From NCBI GenBank assembly GCA_964573205.1, contig CAZNIT010000026.1:1-64000 (forward strand): 64,000 nt of DNA. Reading direction: 5' to 3'. The position numbers were made by a program. This document shows, one piece after another, positions 51,001 through 63,000 of the stretch. The DNA comes from an uncultured Sulfurospirillum sp. GTDB taxonomy: Bacteria > Campylobacterota > Campylobacteria > Campylobacterales > QNZT01. How positions within the stretch are numbered: the first letter of the stretch is position 1; each line of letters begins with the position of its first letter.

Positions 51001-54000
51001 TTGCGGATACGAATATATAAACGATTCTATCACTCAAGAAGAGATAATCGGTTCGAAACTTTTTTCTCCGAAAATAAAAGATTATAAAAGTGACGGAATC
51101 TATCTCAAAGAGGGAGTTAAATTCGGTTATGCGAATATAGATTTCGATACGAACGAGGATGAATCGGTGGAGAGATTTGCGGAGAATGTTTTTAAAGGTT
51201 TCGTAATCGTGATCAATCAAAAAAACGACGAGAACGGAGTTATCGTATCGCAGAGCTTTAAAGAGAGAGTTGCGGATATAGATCCCGAATTCAACGCATT
51301 TTTCTCTCCTTTGCCAAGAGGGGATAAAAAAGCCGGTTTTGAAATATACGGTAAAATAGACAGCAGTAAGATACCGCATCTTCATATGCTCTCTTATAGA
51401 GAAATCGCTCTGGCTTTCACGAAAGAGAAGACTTATATTTATTACTATTACGCAGTAAATCCTTTGAGTGCTTCCGTATATGAAGATTTTTCTCTAAAAG
51501 ATGCCAAATCTATCGAATCGACGTTTAAGGAGATCGATTCGCTTGTTGAAATCGTAAAGAAATGAGTGAGATTTATATTTTAAGCGAAAAACGGTTCAAA
51601 GGTGCCAAAAATCTTCCCGTTATCGTTTTCGACTATTATGACGAAAAAGTCGATTTGTCGCCTTATGATGCTCTGATTTTCACTTCCAAAAACGGTGTTT
51701 TAGCTCTTGATAGAGTCTCCTCCGACTGGAGAAAGTATCCTGTTTTCTCGATCGGTAGCGCAACGAGCGAAACGGTAAGAGAGCTCGGCGGTAAGGTTGT
51801 TTACGAGGCTAGAAGCTCTTACGGCGACAATTTCGCACAAGAGATAAAAAGAGAGCTTAAAAATAGAAGAGTTCTTTTTATACGAGCTAAAGTCGTCACA
51901 TCTTCGTTGAATTTTATATTAAGAGAATCCGGTGTTATTCTGGATGAGAAGATCCTTTATGAAACCGTATGTAACGATTGTAAAAAACTCAAACAACCTC
52001 CTTTGGGCTCATATATAATTTTCTCTTCGCCGTCCACGATTTCTTGTTTCTTTAAATGTTTTGAATGGCAAGCAAGCTATACGGCCGTGGTTATCGGCGA
52101 GAAAACGGCTTCGTTTATGCCTAAAAGTTTAGAATATGTTTTGTCGAAAAAGCAGACGATCTCTTCATGTATAGCCTTGGCTAAAGAAAATATTACTAAA
52201 AAACGTAAAAAATAAACCTTTTTTTTAGCTTTTAATCTTTTATTAATATAAATATCTATAAAATACAAAAGTTTAATATATTTAATAATATAAAGATTGG
52301 AGTTAAATAATTTTATGGAATCGACACAAAGCATATTTGTCAAGGCGCTTGAAAACGATAAATATAGTGAGGCGACTCAGCTTTATTTGGCAAAATGGCA
52401 AAAACGTAGTAAAACGGACGAACGAGAAGAAAACGTATATAAAGGTTTTGTAAACGCCGCAGCGACTTTCGATCTGATAATGAAAGGTAAATACAAAGCC
52501 GCAAAAAGAGTCTGGCGAATATATGAAAAGTACAGACCTTTGATAAATGAAGATATGGAACATTACAGATATTTACAAAAAGCCGACAAAGTGCTTCTTA
52601 GATTAAAAAGAAAATATAAAAAAGTTTTCGATACCGAAAAATATAAATAAATCCAACTATTTTTGATATAATTCAACCAAAAAATAGGAAGGTTGAATTA
52701 TGGGAAGAGCTTTCGAATATAGAAGAGCTGCAAAAGAGAAACGCTGGGATAAGATGTCGAAAATCTTTCCCCGTCTCGCAAAATCTATTACTATGGCCGC
52801 TAAAGAGGGCGGCGGTGATCCCGATATGAATCCCAAACTTCGAGCCGCTATCCAAAACGCCAAAGCTCAAAATATGCCGAAAGAAAATATCGAATCGGCA
52901 ATCAAGAGAGCTCTTGGAAAAGATGCCGATCAAATTCAAGAGGTTCATTATGAAGGCAAGGGACCTCACGGTGCTCTTATCATCGTAGAATGTGCAACCG
53001 ACAACAATACAAGAACGGTCGCCAATATCAAATCTTATTTTAATAAAAACGGCGGTGAACCTTTGAACAAAGGTTCACTCGATTTTATGTTTACTAGAAA
53101 AAGCGTTATCGAGTTTGATGAGAAAGAGGGAATGGATCTTGAGGAGATCGAGCTTGAACTTATAGACGCCGGACTTGAAGAGATGGAGGTTGAAGAGGGT
53201 GTCGTAACCCTTTATGCCCCGTTTGGAAGTTTCGGAGCACTCAATAAAGCGGTCGAAGATCTCGGTATAGAAGTGAAGAAAGCTTCTCTCAAATATATAC
53301 CCAACTCTCCCGTCTCTTTTAGTGAAGAGCAGTTAAGCGATATAGAGAAGCTAATAGACAAAATTGAAGAGGATGACGACGTTCAGGCAGTCTATACGAA
53401 CATAGAGTGATATATAAAGATCCTTCCTCTCTTATCTTTCGAAAGAAGAAGGATGTAAAATACTCTATCTATTTATAGGGTATGACTCTGACGTTTAATT
53501 TTATATCTTCCAAATTTATGTCAACTTTCTCTTTTAGCGGAATTTTCGCTTTTTGTTTGTGAAACTTTCCGTTTAGAGTAAGATTCGTATAAAGAGTTAC
53601 GATACCGTTTTTCTCTTCATCTACCTGCATAAGTAGTTCATAGCTGTTTTTTCCAACTTTAGCTTCCGCTGATCCGGCCTGTTTGAAAGGTGCTATGATC
53701 GACGGCGAATCTATCACCTTTTTATTTTTGATAATCTGTGTCTCTATCATATAAGAGTTTGCGGCAAAAAGGATCGTAGCACTTGCAGTCGATAAAAGTG
53801 CGAATAAAATTTTTTTCATAAATTACCTCCGAAAAAATAAAATGTTATGATATATTTTTAAAACAAACGGATAGTTAACGGTTAAAATATATTCAACTCA
53901 ATTAGGAGTTCGGAAAAAACTTTTGCCCTAGTTTTATCGTTTTTAAGCATTTTCTCGACTACTTGTGAAAGTTTATGGTCTAAAACTCCTTTTAAGGATA

Positions 54001-60000: not shown

Positions 60001-63000
60001 TTCTATCTCTCCGTACGGGAGTTTTCGTGTTAAAGATTCATAAATCGTCACCCCTATGGAAAATATTTCACTCGCTTCATCGATACTATCACCTTTGAAT
60101 CTCTCAGGTGCTAGATAACTTGGAGTTCCCGCACGGGTGAGAGTAGAAAAAATCTCGGTAATTGAGCCAAAATCGACGGTTTTGAAATATGTTTTTCCTT
60201 TCCTTTGCGCTCTGATTATATTATCCGGTTTTATATCCGCATGAACTAGATCATGTTTTAAAAGAAATTGCTCCATATGAAGAAGAAATTTTGCGAGATT
60301 TATACTCTCATCTATCGAAAGGAGTCTGTGTTTTAGGTACTTTTTAAGCTCGTCTCCTCTTAAATGTTCCATCACATAGTAGCGAAGCGTTCTATTCTTC
60401 GGAATGACGGCTTTTGGGAAAAAACCGGCTTTAAGTCTTTTTGCGTTCCACGCCTCTTTGACGAAAAGATCGAGTATTCTTTCGTCACTCAATGCTTCAT
60501 ACGGTGCGAATTTGACCACATAAGAGATACCTTTTTTATCGCATAGCCATGTTCTTTCGTTTTGAACCAGCGGCTTTATAAGTTCGTATCCGTCAACGAT
60601 AGCGCCCGATTTTAATGTTCGTGGGATAGGAAGTTTGAGGGATTTTAGTTTGCAGGTTTGATCTATCTCTTTTATCCGCATGATGACTGCCGTTGTATCG
60701 TCCGGAAGGTTGTCGTTTACTTTTTTACTGGCATATTTTACGAGGTTGTTGGCTCCGGCTATGATGTTTGAAGCGATTTCATCTTCTTTTAGTACGCCGT
60801 AAAGACCGTCCGAACAAAGAAGAATCGTATCATCTTTTTTTATGATGTTCTCAAAATAGTGGATATCGCACTCACCGCTTAATCCTACAGCCGATGTCAA
60901 TACATGATCTAAACCTTTTTCATCACTTTTGTGATCTTTTGAAAGTTGATACAGTTTTCCTTCTCTTTGCAGATAGATACGACTGTCTCCTACATTTGCA
61001 CCATAAAGTCTCTCTCCCTCAACGACGCAGAGTGCGACTGTCGTAACAAGTTCGGTGCTCTCGTATGATTCAAGAGATTCGTTGTAGAGTATAGAATTTA
61101 TATTTTTTACGAAATGTTTGATCGACTTTTCCATACTCCAAGAGATCGGTCTGTTTTGAAGGCTTTTAAGAAGATAGCCGCAAACTCTTTTTGCCGCCTC
61201 TTTGCCCGCTTCGGCACTTCCGACACCGTCACATAAGACGGCGATGCAGAGGTCTTGGAGTCGTTTGTATTCAAAAGCGTCGTCACCCGTCAAGTCGTCG
61301 CTCTTTGCAAGTGAAAATCCCGAAAGCCTGATATTTGTCATTTTAACCTCGATAATAATATACGGACTCTAAAATTAGATTCAGTTTTATATGAACAATG
61401 GTTAAAAATTAGGCACATTAAATTCTTCCTCCAGCCTGTAATCCCCATGTGGTTCTCCATCTGGTTTTTACTAAAGAGATACCGGCAATCGCTATTAATA
61501 CGACCGTTGCGAAGATGATAAATCCCGCTGTATATCCGTCAAAAGCTCCCTTACTCCATCCGAGAGTTTTAATAAGTGCGGTACCGCCAAGACCGCCCGC
61601 ACAGCCTATAATTCCCGTCATTATTCCTATATCTTTACCAAATCTTTGCGGGACGAGCTGAAAAACCGCTCCGTTTGCCATTCCAAGATTTGCCATAATT
61701 AAAAACAAGACTACGATCGCGGCATAAAACGGAAGCTCGATCGTCGCGTTGACGAAGGCCAGGGCTGCGACGGCACCAAAAAAGAAGTAAAGAGATTTGA
61801 TGCCTCCTAGTCTATCCGCGACGGCTCCGCCGACCGGACGAAGTATCGCTCCGGCGAATATGCACAGCGCGCCGAAATAGCCTGCTACGACTTTGACATT
61901 TTCTTCATTTAAAAAATCCACTCCAAAAGTACTCATATCCGCTTGATAACTATTCATAAGATAAACTTTCATATATCCCGCAAATCCGACGAATCCGCCG
62001 AAACTGACCGCATAAAAGAGATTGAACCACCATGTATCTTTATCTCTTAAAAGTTTGAGATAATCTTTTACTTTTTTTGGTCTTGGAGTATATATCTCTT
62101 TGGGGGCGTCTTTTGCCATAAAAAAGTATGTGATCAAGATTATTGTCGAGAGTACCGCTCCAACCAAAAAGACCGATTCCCATCCCCACAATTGCGCAAT
62201 TTTCGGTGCGAACAAAAAGTCTATGACAACGCCGATATTTCCTGCACCGGCAATGCCTAAAACGACTCCTTGAAGCTTGGGAGGATACCACTGTCCGGCC
62301 TGAGGCAGAGCCACCGCAAAGCTAGCTCCCGCAAAACCCAGTATAAACGCTACCATCAAAAGTTCGTCGTATGTGATACTCGCGCCCCTGAAATATGCAT
62401 AATAAAGACCGCCGACGACAACGGTCTGAGCCATAATGGCGGTTTTTTTCGCGCCGATTTTATCAACCGAAAATCCAAGCAGGATTCTCAAGATTGCTCC
62501 GGATAAAATGGGGATTGAAAGAAGTGTCGCTTTTTGTCCAGGCGTCATTATGAAGTCATGGGATAGTTTTAAAGCTTCGGTTATCTCCGTAGAGAGAGGT
62601 CCTAGCATCGTCCAAACCATAAAACTAAAATCAAAATATAAGAATGCTGCCAAAAGTGTGGGCCAGTGTCCTTGTCCCTTAAGTGCTTTTAGTGAAGCCA
62701 TGTAACTCCTTTGTGATCTATTTATGCTTATAGTGTAGCATAATCACGTCAATAGATATACAATATACTGATTAATTATTAAGCAGTTAGTTGTTATTTC
62801 TTCTGAAAAATATTTATTATCTTATGAAACTAAGAGTAAGTACAAAAATTTTACAAAGTATAAAGAATTTTGTGGATATAATATCTGACTAACAAGGGTT
62901 TATGATGAAAATTACATTAAAAGAGATACCGTTTTTTAGTAGTTTAAGCGATGAAAACATAAAAAAGTTGGGGCAGATTTCATGCTTTCGTAACTATAAT

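What the first reader, a model, noticed from the sequence alone, without database searches (positions are those of the whole stretch)
53882..62701. Nitrate-assimilation-like operon whose molybdoenzyme is paired with a ferredoxin/NrfD-like membrane fusion instead of a soluble NAD(P)H or ferredoxin donor
Transcription order is narK, PP2C-kinase, FeS-membrane fusion, NasA/NarB-like Mo subunit (no Tat motif, cytoplasmic), NirA-like siroheme reductase, with overlapping or near-overlapping genes. Assimilatory nitrate reductases normally receive electrons from NasC/NasB-type flavoproteins or ferredoxin. A PsrB-PsrC-type fusion (four [4Fe-4S] clusters plus an 8-TM quinol-binding-like anchor) implies a quinol-driven, membrane-bound, cytoplasm-facing assimilatory complex. 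That architecture is not standard.
Basis: partly seen in the sequence, partly recalled or inferred. Interest (0 to 1): 0.55.

Follow-up and report, generated by a model that had tools for sequence, protein, structure and literature searches.

The report
Membrane-anchored, probably quinol-fed assimilatory nitrate reductase
This nitrate-assimilation operon pairs its nitrate reductase with an iron-sulfur/membrane-anchor fusion protein that faces the cell interior, so it probably takes electrons from the membrane quinol pool rather than from NADH or ferredoxin. The same gene pair is conserved across many bacterial phyla but is annotated only as "DMSO reductase" parts.

Summary
On the minus strand lie narK (61418-62701), a PP2C-phosphatase/Ser-Thr-kinase fusion (59713-61341), a DmsB-type four-cluster ferredoxin fused to an 8-helix DmsC/SoeC-type anchor (58094-59704), a Nas-type molybdoenzyme (55776-58097) and NirA (53882-55792). 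The last three are coupled by an 8-nt gap and by 4- and 17-nt overlaps.

- **Nitrate reductase:** the Mo subunit has the nitrate-reductase active site (Cys-Met, TGQ...R), not the formate-dehydrogenase one.
- **Different electron input:** it lacks the Tat signal of NapA. It also lacks the C-terminal BFD [2Fe-2S] domain found in all four NADH-type Nas references examined.
- **Orientation:** the fusion has no signal peptide. Its charge bias puts the FeS domain in the cytoplasm (K+R 386 inside versus 41 outside across 19 relatives).
- **Quinol site:** the two DmsC residues needed for menaquinol oxidation (His65, Glu87) are invariant.
- **Conservation:** in 80 genomes the Mo gene follows the fusion gene in 37/37 assessable non-Campylobacterota loci and 22/31 Campylobacterota loci. 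The pair sits beside NarK and NirA, NirBD or NasT-type genes.
- **Phylogeny:** the partnered Mo subunits form their own clade (bootstrap 100), sister to canonical Nas.

No paper describing this was found. SoeABC is the nearest architectural precedent. Everything here is computational. I rate it a new variant of a known kind.

The parts
61418..62701 (-). NarK-like nitrate/nitrite MFS transporter (427 aa), first gene of the operon
   Evidence: Pfam MFS_1 at 2e-37. The best NCBIfam hit is the NarK family, TIGR00886, at 239 bits (cutoff 311.7). Homologs of 66-90% identity lie next to the module in Campylobacterota, and homologs of 35-42% identity in several Acidobacteriota and Turneriella loci.
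59713..61341 (-). PP2C phosphatase / Ser-Thr kinase fusion with a C-terminal TM helix (542 aa). Probable regulator, with target unknown; NarK is the obvious candidate.
   Evidence: Pfam PP2C_2 at 1.2e-17 and Pkinase at 1e-22. The C-terminal hydrophobic tail is visible in the sequence. It was found with narK in 12 of 31 assessable Campylobacterota loci and in Hydrogenimonas urashimensis, but never in the other phyla.
58094..59704 (-). Electron-input subunit (536 aa). An N-terminal DmsB-type ferredoxin with four [4Fe-4S] clusters (about aa 36-215, nt 59060-59599) is fused to a DmsC/SoeC-type 8-TM anchor (aa 234-520, nt 58145-59005).
   Evidence: Pfam Fer4_11 plus DmsC. It has 39% identity to E. 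coli DmsB, and the TM domain aligns to DmsC from TM1. The 16 cluster cysteines are invariant. The AF2 model has pLDDT 89.9 and 8 TMs. Foldseek matches PsrB/ArrB for the FeS part and PsrC/ActC for the membrane part.
58766..58834 (-). Predicted quinol site. His291 (nt 58832-58834) and Glu313 (nt 58766-58768) lie in the motif HLGRP...SWLSRE, in the cytoplasmic loop between TM2 and TM3.
   Evidence: These residues are invariant in alignments A1, A2 and A3 and align with E. coli DmsC His65 and Glu87. Replacing those residues blocks or impairs menaquinol oxidation in DmsABC (PMC8076601). The loop closely matches the SoeC-like sequence HLGRPERAWRALSQWRSSWLSRE.
55776..58097 (-). Catalytic subunit (773 aa): a Nas-type Mo-bisPGD nitrate reductase. 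FS0 cysteines are C43/C46/C50/C78 and the Mo ligand is Cys169 (nt 57591-57593). It has a clade-specific N-terminal extension (aa 1-37, nt 57987-58097). It has no Tat signal and no C-terminal BFD domain.
   Evidence: Pfam finds only three domains. The motif TLCMASAV matches NapA RLCMASAV, whereas formate dehydrogenase has CH. The motif TGQCNAMGTRE contrasts with RGQ in formate dehydrogenase. Tree placement is, and pairwise BLASTP scores.
53882..55792 (-). NirA-type siroheme/[4Fe-4S] nitrite reductase (636 aa), with a lineage-specific C-terminal extension of about 110 aa
   Evidence: Pfam finds NIR_SIR_ferr and NIR_SIR twice each. The best NCBIfam hit is ferredoxin-nitrite reductase, PRK09566, at 343 bits, below its cutoff of 594. 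The ATG at 55792 overlaps the end of the Mo gene by 17 nt. The extension is conserved in most Campylobacterota and has no Pfam match.
62702..62901 (.). Intergenic region upstream of narK that is shared with the divergent CRP/FNR gene. This is the presumed promoter region.
   Evidence: Position only. The sigma-70 consensus scan found no more sites than chance (15 found against 20.7 expected), so no specific promoter is claimed.
62902..63546 (+). Divergent CRP/FNR-family regulator (214 aa). It is a possible regulator of this operon or of the adjacent nor/nirS genes.
   Evidence: Pfam cNMP_binding plus HTH_Crp_2. On the full contig it lies between this operon and norCB-nirS. Any link to the operon is inferred from position only.

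Best explanation
The operon encodes a complete nitrate-to-ammonium assimilation route.

Proposed steps:
1. NarK imports nitrate.
2. A two-protein, membrane-bound, cytoplasm-facing nitrate reductase reduces it to nitrite.
3. NirA reduces nitrite to ammonium.

How the nitrate reductase is built:
- It consists of a Nas-type Mo-bisPGD catalytic subunit docked on a single polypeptide.
- That polypeptide combines a DmsB-like wire of four [4Fe-4S] clusters with a DmsC/SoeC-like 8-helix anchor.
- The module sits in the membrane upside-down relative to DmsABC and PsrABC, as SoeABC does.
- The quinol site (His291/Glu313) and the FeS domain are therefore both on the cytoplasmic side.

Proposed electron path: menaquinol is oxidised at that site. 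Electrons then pass through the four clusters to FS0 and the Mo centre, where nitrate is reduced. Quinol protons are released, and nitrate-reduction protons are consumed, on the same side of the membrane. The step should therefore be electroneutral. It spares NAD(P)H and ferredoxin, which are costly for sulfur- or hydrogen-oxidising autotrophs whose electrons enter at quinone level.

Shown by computation: gene identities, active-site type, lack of export signals, charge-bias topology, conserved Q-site residues, obligate gene pairing and assimilatory gene neighbourhoods.

Inferred only: physical complex formation, quinol as the donor, electroneutrality, and the regulatory role of the PP2C/kinase.
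For: (1) Nitrate reductase identity.
- Cys169-Met and TGQ...R motifs are shared with NapA and Nas and differ from formate dehydrogenases.
- BLASTP and HMM scores favour Nas over Nap, Fdh, Phs, Dms and Soe.
- In the tree the clade is sister to canonical Nas with 81% support.

(2) Swapped electron-input module.
- All four canonical Nas references carry a C-terminal Fer2_BFD domain plus a fused or adjacent NAD(P)H flavoprotein.
- The window enzyme and its clade (722-777 aa) lack this domain. They carry instead a conserved N-terminal extension of about 35 aa.

(3) Obligate pairing.
- The Mo gene lies within 150 bp downstream of the fusion gene in 37/37 assessable non-Campylobacterota loci and 22/31 Campylobacterota loci.
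- The window genes overlap by 4 nt.

(4) Assimilatory context across phyla.
- HemD, CobA, NirB and NarK in an Acidobacteriota locus. NirB and NirD in a Latescibacterota locus. A CysJ-like protein with NirA and NarK in Turneriella.
- NasT-like GAF-ANTAR regulator with NirBD in an Omnitrophota locus.
- NarK-like MFS with a NirA::Rieske::FNR fusion in Symmachiella.
- glnK and amt in Hydrogenimonas.

(5) Cytoplasmic orientation.
- Both ORFs are maximal and have no signal or Tat motif.
- K+R counts are 25 inside versus 3 outside for the window protein and 386 versus 41 for the family. The homologous loops of periplasm-facing E. coli DmsC show no such bias.

(6) Quinol site.
- His291 and Glu313 are invariant and align with DmsC His65 and Glu87.
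- Mutational studies cited in PMC8076601 support the functional importance of those residues.
- The loop motif is nearly the same as in the SoeC-like anchor, which is predicted to be inverted.

(7) Fold.
- The model is confident, with 8 TMs and PsrB/PsrC-like domains.
Against: - There is no experimental evidence of any kind for this family.
- Complex formation between the Mo subunit and the fusion was not modelled, because only single-chain prediction was available.
- Model coordinates could not be inspected, so the distance from the last cluster to His291/Glu313 is unverified.
- Four Campylobacterota loci carry the fusion gene with no Mo gene within 8 kb, and three have insertions between the two genes.
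- The window operon sits next to an FNR-type regulator, norCB and nirS, which would also fit a dissimilatory or dual role.
- The Mo subunit scores below every curated NCBIfam cutoff.
- The tree is neighbour-joining only and lacks cyanobacterial NarB and Bacillus NasC.
- The NarK and NirA assignments also rest on NCBIfam scores below the curated cutoffs.
Confidence: 0.7

Rival explanations
1. The same complex acts mainly as a dissimilatory or redox-balancing nitrate reductase. In this reading it is a non-electrogenic, Nar-like electron sink. NarK exports the nitrite to periplasmic NirS for denitrification, and assimilation is secondary.
For: - In the window the operon lies beside a CRP/FNR regulator, norCB and two nirS genes.
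- NarK-family proteins can act as nitrate/nitrite antiporters (general knowledge).
- Some Acidobacteria reduce nitrate to nitrite although only nasA-type genes were found in their genomes (PMC5900883). It was not verified that their nasA genes belong to the clade described here.
Against: - NirA overlaps the end of the Mo gene by 17 nt in the window.
- In other phyla the pair sits with NirBD, a NasT-type ANTAR regulator, siroheme-synthesis genes, amt and glnK.
- A Q-site on the cytoplasmic face gives no redox loop, so little energy would be gained.
- Campylobacterota generally respire nitrate with periplasmic Nap (PMC4288042; PMC4584964).
Confidence: 0.12
2. The membrane domain is only an anchor or scaffold. 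Electrons enter the four-cluster domain from a soluble ferredoxin or flavodoxin, as in NarB, and quinol is not the donor.
For: Campylobacterota run the reverse TCA cycle and have abundant reduced ferredoxin (general knowledge; OOR and POR are listed for Sulfurimonas in PMC4584964). NirA in the same operon needs a low-potential donor anyway. Polyferredoxin-like domains can accept electrons from soluble carriers.
Against: - The two residues required for menaquinol oxidation in DmsC are invariant across relatives that share only 28-40% identity, including phyla where the nitrite reductase is NADH-dependent.
- The whole TM2-TM3 loop motif is conserved with the quinone-reactive SoeC-like anchor.
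- Conservation of an 8-TM domain across phyla (mean column identity 50% in A3) is hard to explain as a mere tether.
Confidence: 0.12
3. The Mo enzyme acts on a substrate other than nitrate. It could be a cytoplasmic formate:quinone oxidoreductase, as its best NCBIfam hit (Fdh-alpha) suggests, or a reductase for chlorate, selenate or another oxyanion.
For: The best NCBIfam score is TIGR01591 Fdh-alpha, at 616 bits (cutoff 666). The top PDB sequence hit is a formate dehydrogenase. JGI names some fusion homologs 'formate dehydrogenase iron-sulfur subunit'.
Against: - The Cys ligand is followed by Met, not His. The motif is TGQ, not RGQ. Both are invariant in all 31 clade members.
- The neighbours are nitrate transporters and nitrite reductases in every phylum examined.
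- The closest annotated plasmid genes are nitrate reductases.
Confidence: 0.04
4. The complex faces the periplasm after all, exported by a cryptic signal or by hitch-hiking.
For: Every characterised DmsABC- and PsrABC-type complex is periplasmic. E. coli DmsC has its N-terminus outside the cell (own knowledge).
Against: - Neither subunit has a signal or Tat motif, and both ORFs are maximal.
- The charge bias is reversed relative to E. coli DmsC.
- NarK import and a cytoplasmic NirA or NirBD would make no sense with a periplasmic enzyme.
- SoeABC shows that this anchor type can be inverted (PMC8076601).
Confidence: 0.02

Closest known systems
Bacterial assimilatory nitrate reductases (NasA/NasC with an NADH flavoprotein; ferredoxin-dependent NarB)
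   Same: The catalytic subunit is homologous, at 30-37% identity. It shares the FS0 motif, the Cys-Met Mo-ligand motif and TGQ...R. It is cytoplasmic, and it has the same operon logic with a nitrate transporter and a siroheme nitrite reductase.
   Different: It forms a separate clade with 100% bootstrap support. It lacks the C-terminal BFD [2Fe-2S] domain and the NAD(P)H flavoprotein partner found in all four references. It has a clade-specific N-terminal extension of about 35 aa. Its constant partner is a membrane FeS/anchor fusion. It scores below the NasC and NasA NCBIfam cutoffs.
SoeABC sulfite:quinone oxidoreductase (cytoplasm-facing complex iron-sulfur molybdoenzyme)
   Same: This is the only described complex of this type in which the Mo and FeS subunits face the cytoplasm and a DmsC-family anchor is inverted, with His65/Glu87 at the N-side (PMC8076601). 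The TM2-TM3 loop motif HLGRP...R.SWLSRE is nearly identical.
   Different: The catalytic subunit is unrelated at the family level: SoeA gives 83 bits against 339-469 for Nas. Electrons flow the other way, from sulfite to quinone. SoeB and SoeC are separate genes. The context is sulfur or sulfonate metabolism, for example next to xsc.
DmsABC DMSO reductase (E. coli)
   Same: The FeS domain is 39% identical to DmsB and has four Cys groups. The anchor is Pfam DmsC and aligns from TM1. The Q-site His65 and Glu87 are conserved.
   Different: DmsAB is exported by Tat to the periplasm, and DmsC has its N-terminus outside the cell. The catalytic subunit is of the DmsA type (132 bits to the window enzyme). 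B and C are separate proteins. The charge bias of the loops is opposite or absent.
NarGHI respiratory nitrate reductase
   Same: It catalyses the same overall reaction, quinol:nitrate oxidoreduction, with a cytoplasm-facing active site. It is membrane-bound, and NarK is often adjacent.
   Different: NarG is an Asp-ligated, much larger enzyme from a different clade. NarH scores 50 bits against a cutoff of 524. NarI is a di-haem b anchor that oxidises quinol at the periplasmic face and so builds a proton-motive redox loop. The present complex has no haem and should be electroneutral (inference).
PsrABC polysulfide reductase / NrfD-type anchors
   Same: The predicted fold of the FeS domain matches PsrB (TM-score 0.80 on the target). 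The membrane domain matches PsrC (E 1.5e-3) and ActC. It is an 8-TM, haem-free, quinone-reactive anchor.
   Different: No Pfam NrfD match was found. Psr is periplasmic. PsrC uses different Q-site residues (Tyr/Asp/His types, PMC8076601). PhsA/PsrA-type catalytic subunits are distant (217 bits).

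Membership tests
Assimilatory nitrate reductase catalytic subunit (Nas/NarB type) | N-terminal FS0 [4Fe-4S] motif C-x2-C-x3-C-x27-C | tested here: met
   C43, C46, C50 and C78. Pfam Molybdop_Fe4S4 at 1.2e-17.
Assimilatory nitrate reductase catalytic subunit (Nas/NarB type) | Cys ligand to Mo followed by Met (LCM[AS]S), and TGQ...R rather than the formate-dehydrogenase [U/C]-H and RGQ | tested here: met
   The window has TLC169MASAV and TGQCNAMGTR375E. 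These match the Nas and NapA references and D. desulfuricans NapA, and differ from FdhF. They are invariant in 31 clade members.
Assimilatory nitrate reductase catalytic subunit (Nas/NarB type) | Cytoplasmic: no Tat signal peptide | tested here: met
   The ORF is maximal and starts MIDKIKK, with no RR motif. The NapA references have a Tat leader at the same position.
Assimilatory nitrate reductase catalytic subunit (Nas/NarB type) | Clustered with a nitrate transporter and an assimilatory (siroheme) nitrite reductase | tested here: met
   True in the window and in loci from at least 8 phyla, with NirA, NirBD or CysJ-NirA variants.
Assimilatory nitrate reductase catalytic subunit (Nas/NarB type) | Scores above the curated NCBIfam equivalog cutoffs (NasC NF047855; NasA_Halo NF041323) | tested here: not met
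   562 bits against a cutoff of 1100, and 513 against 1000. It is a distinct clade, not a member of those equivalogs.
Assimilatory nitrate reductase catalytic subunit (Nas/NarB type) | Electron input through a C-terminal BFD [2Fe-2S] domain with an NAD(P)H flavoprotein (NasA/NasC type) | tested here: not met
   No Fer2_BFD domain in the window enzyme. The domain is present in all four references, which also have a fused or adjacent Pyr_redox_2 flavoprotein.
Assimilatory nitrate reductase catalytic subunit (Nas/NarB type) | Nitrate reductase activity that supports growth on nitrate as N source | not testable with these tools
   This needs enzymology and genetics.
DmsABC-type complex iron-sulfur molybdoenzyme | Four-cluster FeS subunit (four Cys groups) | tested here: met
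   16 invariant Cys in four groups. TIGR02951 DmsB is the best NCBIfam hit, at 150 bits, below its cutoff of 214.
DmsABC-type complex iron-sulfur molybdoenzyme | DmsC-family 8-TM anchor with the Q-site residues His65 and Glu87 | tested here: met
   Pfam DmsC at 3e-19. 8 TMs. H291 and E313 are invariant and aligned to the DmsC residues.
DmsABC-type complex iron-sulfur molybdoenzyme | Tat export of the A and B subunits; periplasmic orientation | tested here: not met
   No Tat motif, and the charge bias is 386 inside versus 41 outside.
DmsABC-type complex iron-sulfur molybdoenzyme | DmsA-type catalytic subunit | tested here: not met
   TIGR02166 scores 168 bits against a cutoff of 778. BLASTP gives 132 bits to E. 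coli DmsA.
SoeABC sulfite dehydrogenase | Cytoplasm-facing subunits with an inverted DmsC-family anchor | tested here: met
   Topology counts. Loop motif shared with the SoeC-like anchor. The inverted orientation of SoeC is as stated in PMC8076601.
SoeABC sulfite dehydrogenase | SoeA-type catalytic subunit | tested here: not met
   83 bits over 351 aa to the Azospirillum SoeA-like protein, against 339-469 bits to Nas enzymes.
NarGHI respiratory nitrate reductase | NarG/NarH subunits and the di-haem NarI anchor | tested here: not met
   narH TIGR01660 scores 50 bits against a cutoff of 524. No NarG-type NCBIfam model appears among the 25 families listed for the Mo subunit (28 matched). No NarI-like gene is present in the operon.
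Periplasmic nitrate reductase NapA | Tat leader and NapB or NapGH partners | tested here: not met
   No leader. NapA models score 445 and 431 bits against cutoffs of 904 and 931. No nap genes are found in the operon.
Formate dehydrogenase alpha (FdhF/TIGR01591) | Sec/Cys-His pair and a catalytic Arg in the RGQ motif; score above cutoff | tested here: not met
   The window has Cys-Met and TGQ. It scores 616 bits against a cutoff of 666.
   No NrfD hit at E<=0.01. There is only fold-level similarity to PsrC (E 1.5e-3, TM-score 0.52 on the target).

The most novel reading that the evidence does not exclude
This is a third, quinol-dependent class of assimilatory nitrate reductase, used by large environmental phyla that are, to my knowledge, mostly menaquinone users: Campylobacterota, Acidobacteriota, Planctomycetota, Actinomycetota, Omnitrophota and Kiritimatiellota.

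In Campylobacterota it may go further. NirA carries a conserved C-terminal extension of unknown function and is often translationally coupled to the module. It could dock on the same FeS/anchor protein. If so, the whole eight-electron reduction of nitrate to ammonium would be fed from the quinone pool, without ferredoxin or NAD(P)H. The inverted NrfD-like anchor might also couple the large redox drop to ion movement.
Probability: 0.12. Interest if true: 0.8.

Novelty: new variant of a known kind. Interest (0 to 1): 0.62.

Why it matters
Textbook bacterial nitrate assimilation has two ways of feeding the reductase: NAD(P)H through a flavoprotein, or ferredoxin/flavodoxin. A quinol-fed, membrane-bound form would add a third.

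- **Physiology.** It would tie nitrogen assimilation directly to the redox state of the respiratory quinone pool. It would make nitrate use cheap for lithoautotrophs whose electrons enter at quinone level, because no reverse electron flow would be needed for this step.
- **An existing puzzle.** It may explain reports of Acidobacteria that reduce nitrate to nitrite with only 'nasA' genes.
- **Annotation.** The partner is currently named 'DMSO reductase chain B/anchor', 'DmsC/YnfH family' or 'formate dehydrogenase iron-sulfur subunit'. Metagenomic surveys that count dmsB/dmsC or fdh genes are therefore probably miscounting, and surveys that count nasA/narB assume the wrong donor.
- **Evolution.** It gives a second, independent example, after SoeABC, of a whole FeS/anchor module working upside-down in the membrane.
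- **Testability.** Cultured carriers with complete genomes exist (Hydrogenimonas urashimensis AP023212, Symmachiella dynata CP036276), so the idea can be tested directly.

Tried and rejected
- **Psr/Phs/Ttr-type respiratory reductase.** Rejected on HMM scores, BLASTP scores and the tree.
- **Formate dehydrogenase.** This is the best NCBIfam and PDB sequence hit, but it was rejected on active-site residues and gene context.
- **Cryptic Tat signal.** A regex scan of 19 fusion N-termini and inspection of 31 Mo N-termini found none.
- **FqoABC.** I checked whether the 'FqoABC' complex proposed in PMC8076601 is the same thing. It is not: it has FdnGH-like subunits and a PsrC-like Q-site.
- **Promoter and terminator scan of the operon.** No more sites than expected by chance, so nothing is claimed.
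- **Rfam scan of the whole window.** No hits, so no known leader or riboswitch.
- **Plasmid collection.** No fused homolog was found among 72,556 plasmids, only separate dmsB/dmsC or SoeBC-like gene pairs.
- **The look-up of encoding contigs for the Calycomorphotria protein (P0149).** Not on record.
- **Pfam on the NirA C-terminal extension and on the 116-aa downstream ORF.** Nothing credible.
- **Literature.** None found a description of this architecture. The library holds open-access papers only, so absence there is not proof.
- **Reference sequences and model geometry.** I could not obtain cyanobacterial NarB or Bacillus NasC sequences for the tree. I could not read model coordinates to measure the cluster-to-Q-site distance.

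Full report
**1. What is in the sequence**

Five co-directional genes lie on the minus strand between 53882 and 62701.

| Coordinates | Product | Evidence |
|---|---|---|
| 61418-62701 | NarK-like MFS transporter | NarK family TIGR00886 is the best NCBIfam hit, 239 bits, below its 311.7 cutoff |
| 59713-61341 | PP2C phosphatase fused to a Ser/Thr kinase, with a C-terminal TM helix | Pfam PP2C_2 and Pkinase |
| 58094-59704 | 536-aa fusion of a ferredoxin domain and a membrane anchor | Pfam Fer4_11 plus DmsC (PF04976) |
| 55776-58097 | 773-aa molybdopterin oxidoreductase | Three Pfam domains only |
| 53882-55792 | NirA-type siroheme nitrite reductase | Ferredoxin-nitrite reductase PRK09566 is the best NCBIfam hit, 343 bits, below its cutoff of 594 |

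- Gene spacing is 76 nt, 8 nt, a 4-nt overlap and a 17-nt overlap.
- The NirA start is most likely the ATG at 55792. This matches the gene call on the public contig that carries the identical locus, a 110,985-bp ENA metagenome contig.
- On that contig a divergent CRP/FNR gene, then norCB and two nirS genes, follow beyond the end of the window.
- The closest named relatives are Hydrogenimonas and other Campylobacterota. The source is therefore an uncultured member of the Campylobacterales.

**2. The molybdoenzyme is a nitrate reductase of its own clade**

Curated models rank it Fdh-alpha 616 bits, NasC 562, NasA(Halo) 513, NapA 445 and PhsA 217. All of these are below their cutoffs. The active site settles the ambiguity:
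- Around the Mo ligand the window reads TLC169-M-ASAV. D. desulfuricans NapA reads RLCMASAV, whereas a solved formate dehydrogenase reads RICHGPSV.
- The window has S-I-T-G-Q-C-N-A-M-G-T-R-E, like Nap and Nas (TGQPNA.G..RE). Formate dehydrogenases have RGQNNVQG.

Further evidence for a distinct Nas-like clade:
- Among 72,556 plasmids the best matches are annotated nitrate reductase or nasA (33-37% identity), ahead of fdhF and napA.
- BLASTP gives 759-799 bits to Mo subunits that sit next to a fusion gene in other phyla. It gives 339-469 to canonical assimilatory reductases, 364-375 to FdhF, 348-356 to NapA, 132 to DmsA and 83 to a SoeA-like protein.
- In a neighbour-joining tree (724 columns, 100 bootstraps) the 31 fusion-linked enzymes are monophyletic (100%). 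They are sister to the four canonical assimilatory enzymes (81%).
- The clade members are 722-777 aa long. They lack the C-terminal BFD-type [2Fe-2S] domain that all four canonical references carry together with a fused or adjacent NAD(P)H flavoprotein.
- They carry instead a conserved N-terminal extension of about 35 residues (…LGLDI..[DE]KY.Y…). It occupies the position where NapA has its Tat leader, but it has no twin arginine.

**3. The partner protein**

- *FeS half.* The N-terminal half is 39% identical to E. coli DmsB. It has four complete cysteine groups, 16 Cys in all, invariant in 52 relatives.
- *Membrane half.* The C-terminal half aligns with E. coli DmsC from its first helix. It has eight TM helices by hydropathy and in a confident AlphaFold2 model (pLDDT 89.9, pTM 0.89).
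- *Fold.* Foldseek matches the FeS part to ArrB, PsrB and FdnH. It matches the membrane part, more weakly, to PsrC (E 1.5e-3) and ActC.
- *Quinol site.* His291 and Glu313 are invariant and align with DmsC His65 and Glu87. A review reports that replacing His65 blocks quinol oxidation and that Glu87 is important for quinol binding (PMC8076601).

**4. Orientation**

- Both ORFs start immediately after an in-frame stop, so neither can hide a signal peptide.
- No Tat-like motif occurs in 19 distant fusion relatives.
- With the FeS domain inside, K+R counts are 25 inside versus 3 outside for the window protein. They are 386 versus 41 summed over 19 relatives. The homologous loops of periplasm-facing E. 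coli DmsC show no such bias.
- The module is therefore inverted relative to DmsABC.
- The same review states that SoeABC sulfite dehydrogenase is cytoplasm-facing, with an inverted anchor that carries the same His65/Glu87 pair.
- I retrieved an Azospirillum SoeABC-like locus next to xsc. Its anchor has the loop HLGRPERAWRALSQWRSSWLSRE. The window has HLGRPALAITAMKNLRTSWLSRE. This is much closer than E. coli DmsC.
- The anchor thus belongs with the already-inverted SoeC-like branch of the DmsC family. The FeS domain is slightly closer to DmsB (132 bits versus 107).

**5. Comparative genomics**

*Breadth of the fusion family*
- A full HMMER scan of 1.84 billion representatives found 691 clusters at E<=1e-30. 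By my manual count of the listed rows, about 110 of the best 150 cover both domains at 33-59% identity.
- A profile search found 5,809 clusters (90% identity) at E<=1e-30.
- Source names are generic or misleading: 'DmsC/YnfH family anchor', 'DMSO reductase iron-sulfur subunit', 'anaerobic DMSO reductase chain B', 'formate dehydrogenase iron-sulfur subunit'.

*Taxonomic spread*
- A scan of one genome per species returned 80 loci. About half are Campylobacterota (Sulfurovum, Sulfurimonas, Sulfuricurvum, Nitratifractor, Arcobacter and Halarcobacter).
- The rest are Acidobacteriota, Actinomycetota, Kiritimatiellota (Pontiella), Latescibacterota, a Chlamydiae MAG, Turneriella, Polyangiales and Dormiibacterota.

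*Gene pairing*
- The clade-specific Mo gene lies within 150 bp downstream of the fusion gene in 37/37 assessable non-Campylobacterota loci.
- Among 31 assessable Campylobacterota loci it is adjacent in 22, within 1 kb in 2, farther away in 3 and absent from the locus in 4.

*Neighbours are assimilatory but vary in type*

| Organism (locus) | Genes beside the fusion-Mo pair |
|---|---|
| Acidobacteriota (L046) | HemD, CobA, NirB, NarK |
| Latescibacterota (L048) | MFS, NirB, NirD |
| Turneriella (L042) and an acidobacterium (L058) | CysJ-like flavoprotein with a NirA-like protein |
| Omnitrophota (L092) | NasT-like GAF-ANTAR regulator, NirB, NirD, MFS |
| Symmachiella dynata, cultured planctomycete | MFS and a NirA::Rieske::FNR fusion |
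| Hydrogenimonas urashimensis, cultured | glnK, amt, PP2C/kinase, narK, nirA |

The nitrite-reductase type changes from phylum to phylum while the fusion-Mo pair does not. This is the strongest argument that the two proteins form one nitrate-reducing unit used for assimilation.

**6. Mechanism proposed**

1. NarK imports nitrate.
2. Menaquinol is oxidised at the His291/Glu313 site on the cytoplasmic face of the anchor.
3. Electrons pass along four [4Fe-4S] clusters to FS0 and the Mo-bisPGD centre, where nitrate becomes nitrite.
4. NirA completes the reduction to ammonium.

The anchor has no haem, so the quinol site must lie next to the FeS domain. Proton release and proton uptake are then both cytoplasmic, and the step should be electroneutral (inference).

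The driving force is ample: about -74 mV for menaquinone (own knowledge) against about +430 mV for nitrate/nitrite (PMC10100899). The benefit would be to spare NAD(P)H and ferredoxin in organisms whose electron donors feed the quinone pool (inference).

The phyla that carry the module are, to my knowledge, mostly menaquinone users. No fused homolog was found in the Proteobacteria-rich plasmid collection. I did not test this pattern systematically.

**7. Rivals**

- *Dissimilatory or dual role.* The neighbouring FNR-type regulator, norCB and nirS in this particular contig suggest it. So do reports of Acidobacteria that reduce nitrate with only nasA-type genes. The overlap of the Mo gene with nirA and the cross-phylum assimilatory contexts argue that assimilation is the core role.
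- *Ferredoxin entry, with the membrane domain as a mere tether.* This cannot be excluded without biochemistry. It would leave the invariant Q-site residues unexplained.
- *A non-nitrate substrate, or a periplasmic orientation.* Both are unlikely for the reasons given in sections 2 and 4.

**8. What is known, and novelty**

- Genome papers on Campylobacterota and Acidobacteria list these genes simply as NasA, NarB or 'Nas'.
- A superfamily study of MopB enzymes treats Nas as cytoplasmic enzymes with 'partner subunits characteristic of assimilation' and does not mention DmsC.
- A 2021 review that catalogues 15 kinds of NrfD-like-anchored complexes includes no assimilatory nitrate reductase.
- Phrase searches for membrane-bound or quinol-dependent assimilatory nitrate reductase returned nothing.
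- Within the limits of an open-access library, the architecture appears undescribed. Each part, however, belongs to a known family, and SoeABC is a precedent for the inverted module.
- I therefore rate it a new variant of a known kind. It is widespread rather than peculiar to this window.

**9. Limits**

- Everything here is computational.
- No heteromeric model was made, and model coordinates could not be inspected.
- The tree is neighbour-joining only and lacks NarB and NasC.
- Gene calls in GC-rich loci were made by a simple longest-ORF rule.
- The counts of family size include some partial proteins.

Noticed in passing
window 59713-61341 (-); also L004, L005, L008, L012, L014, L016, L018, L019, L021, L023, L025, L028, L034, L063, L094: A membrane-tethered PP2C-phosphatase/Ser-Thr-kinase fusion sits next to narK in many Campylobacterota. 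It is never found next to the module in other phyla. Both catalytic domains keep their key motifs (DFG, APE; PP2C Asp residues). A literature search found only plant precedents for kinase/PP2C control of nitrate transporters.
   Followed up: partly
window 53882-54250 (-), the C-terminal ~110 aa of NirA: NirA carries a Cys-free C-terminal extension with conserved motifs (E.FE[IL]F.[FL]G; R..VFSELL). It is present in most Campylobacterota NirA proteins. It is absent from three shorter Campylobacterota NirA proteins (L013, L017, L018) and from non-Campylobacterota NirA-like proteins. It has no Pfam family.
   Followed up: partly
window 57987-58097 (-), Mo subunit aa 1-37: A conserved N-terminal extension (…LGLDI..[DE]KY.Y..D..[FY]G…) is specific to the fusion-linked nitrate reductase clade across all phyla. 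It lies where NapA has its Tat leader. It may be a docking arm or a remnant signal peptide.
   Followed up: partly
window 56983-56985 (-), Mo subunit Cys369 in TGQ-C-NAMG: The clade has an invariant Cys where Nas and Nap have Pro (TGQPNA). Its meaning is unknown.
   Followed up: no
window 38660-41752 (-) and 41775-43913 (-): About 12 kb from the operon lies a hybrid histidine kinase with an N-terminal NIT (nitrate/nitrite-sensing) domain. It is followed by a 712-aa protein with only a weak Hpt match.
   Followed up: no
L001 1-6800 (beyond the window's 3' end on the public contig): Denitrification genes lie directly beyond the CRP/FNR gene: norC-norB (Cytochrom_C plus COX1) and two cytochrome cd1 nirS paralogs.
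   Followed up: no
L023 9635-14728; L033 8163-15840; L004, L030, L035: In some Sulfurimonas MAGs, genes I judged chemotaxis-like from their N-terminal sequences only (no domain search was run) are inserted between the fusion gene and the Mo gene. In four loci the fusion gene has no Mo partner within 8 kb, and in L033 it is N-terminally truncated to 452 aa. These could be rearrangements, decay or misassembly.
   Followed up: partly
window 15125-24136 (-): A Pel exopolysaccharide operon is present (PelB-like TPR/beta-barrel, PelG, PelF-like glycosyltransferase, PelD-like). A neighbouring 896-aa protein (12196-14886) has no confident family.
   Followed up: no
window 53469-53819 (-): A 116-aa protein with a signal-peptide-like N-terminus and no family match lies 62 nt downstream of nirA. 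It is conserved on the identical public contigs.
   Followed up: no
L084 (Chondrinema litorale plasmid) 4986-10030: This Bacteroidota nitrate reductase is a 1178-aa fusion of the Mo enzyme, an NAD(P)H flavoprotein and a BFD domain. It is followed by a 480-aa protein with NIR_SIR_ferr and rubredoxin domains. This is yet another way of wiring Nas.
   Followed up: no
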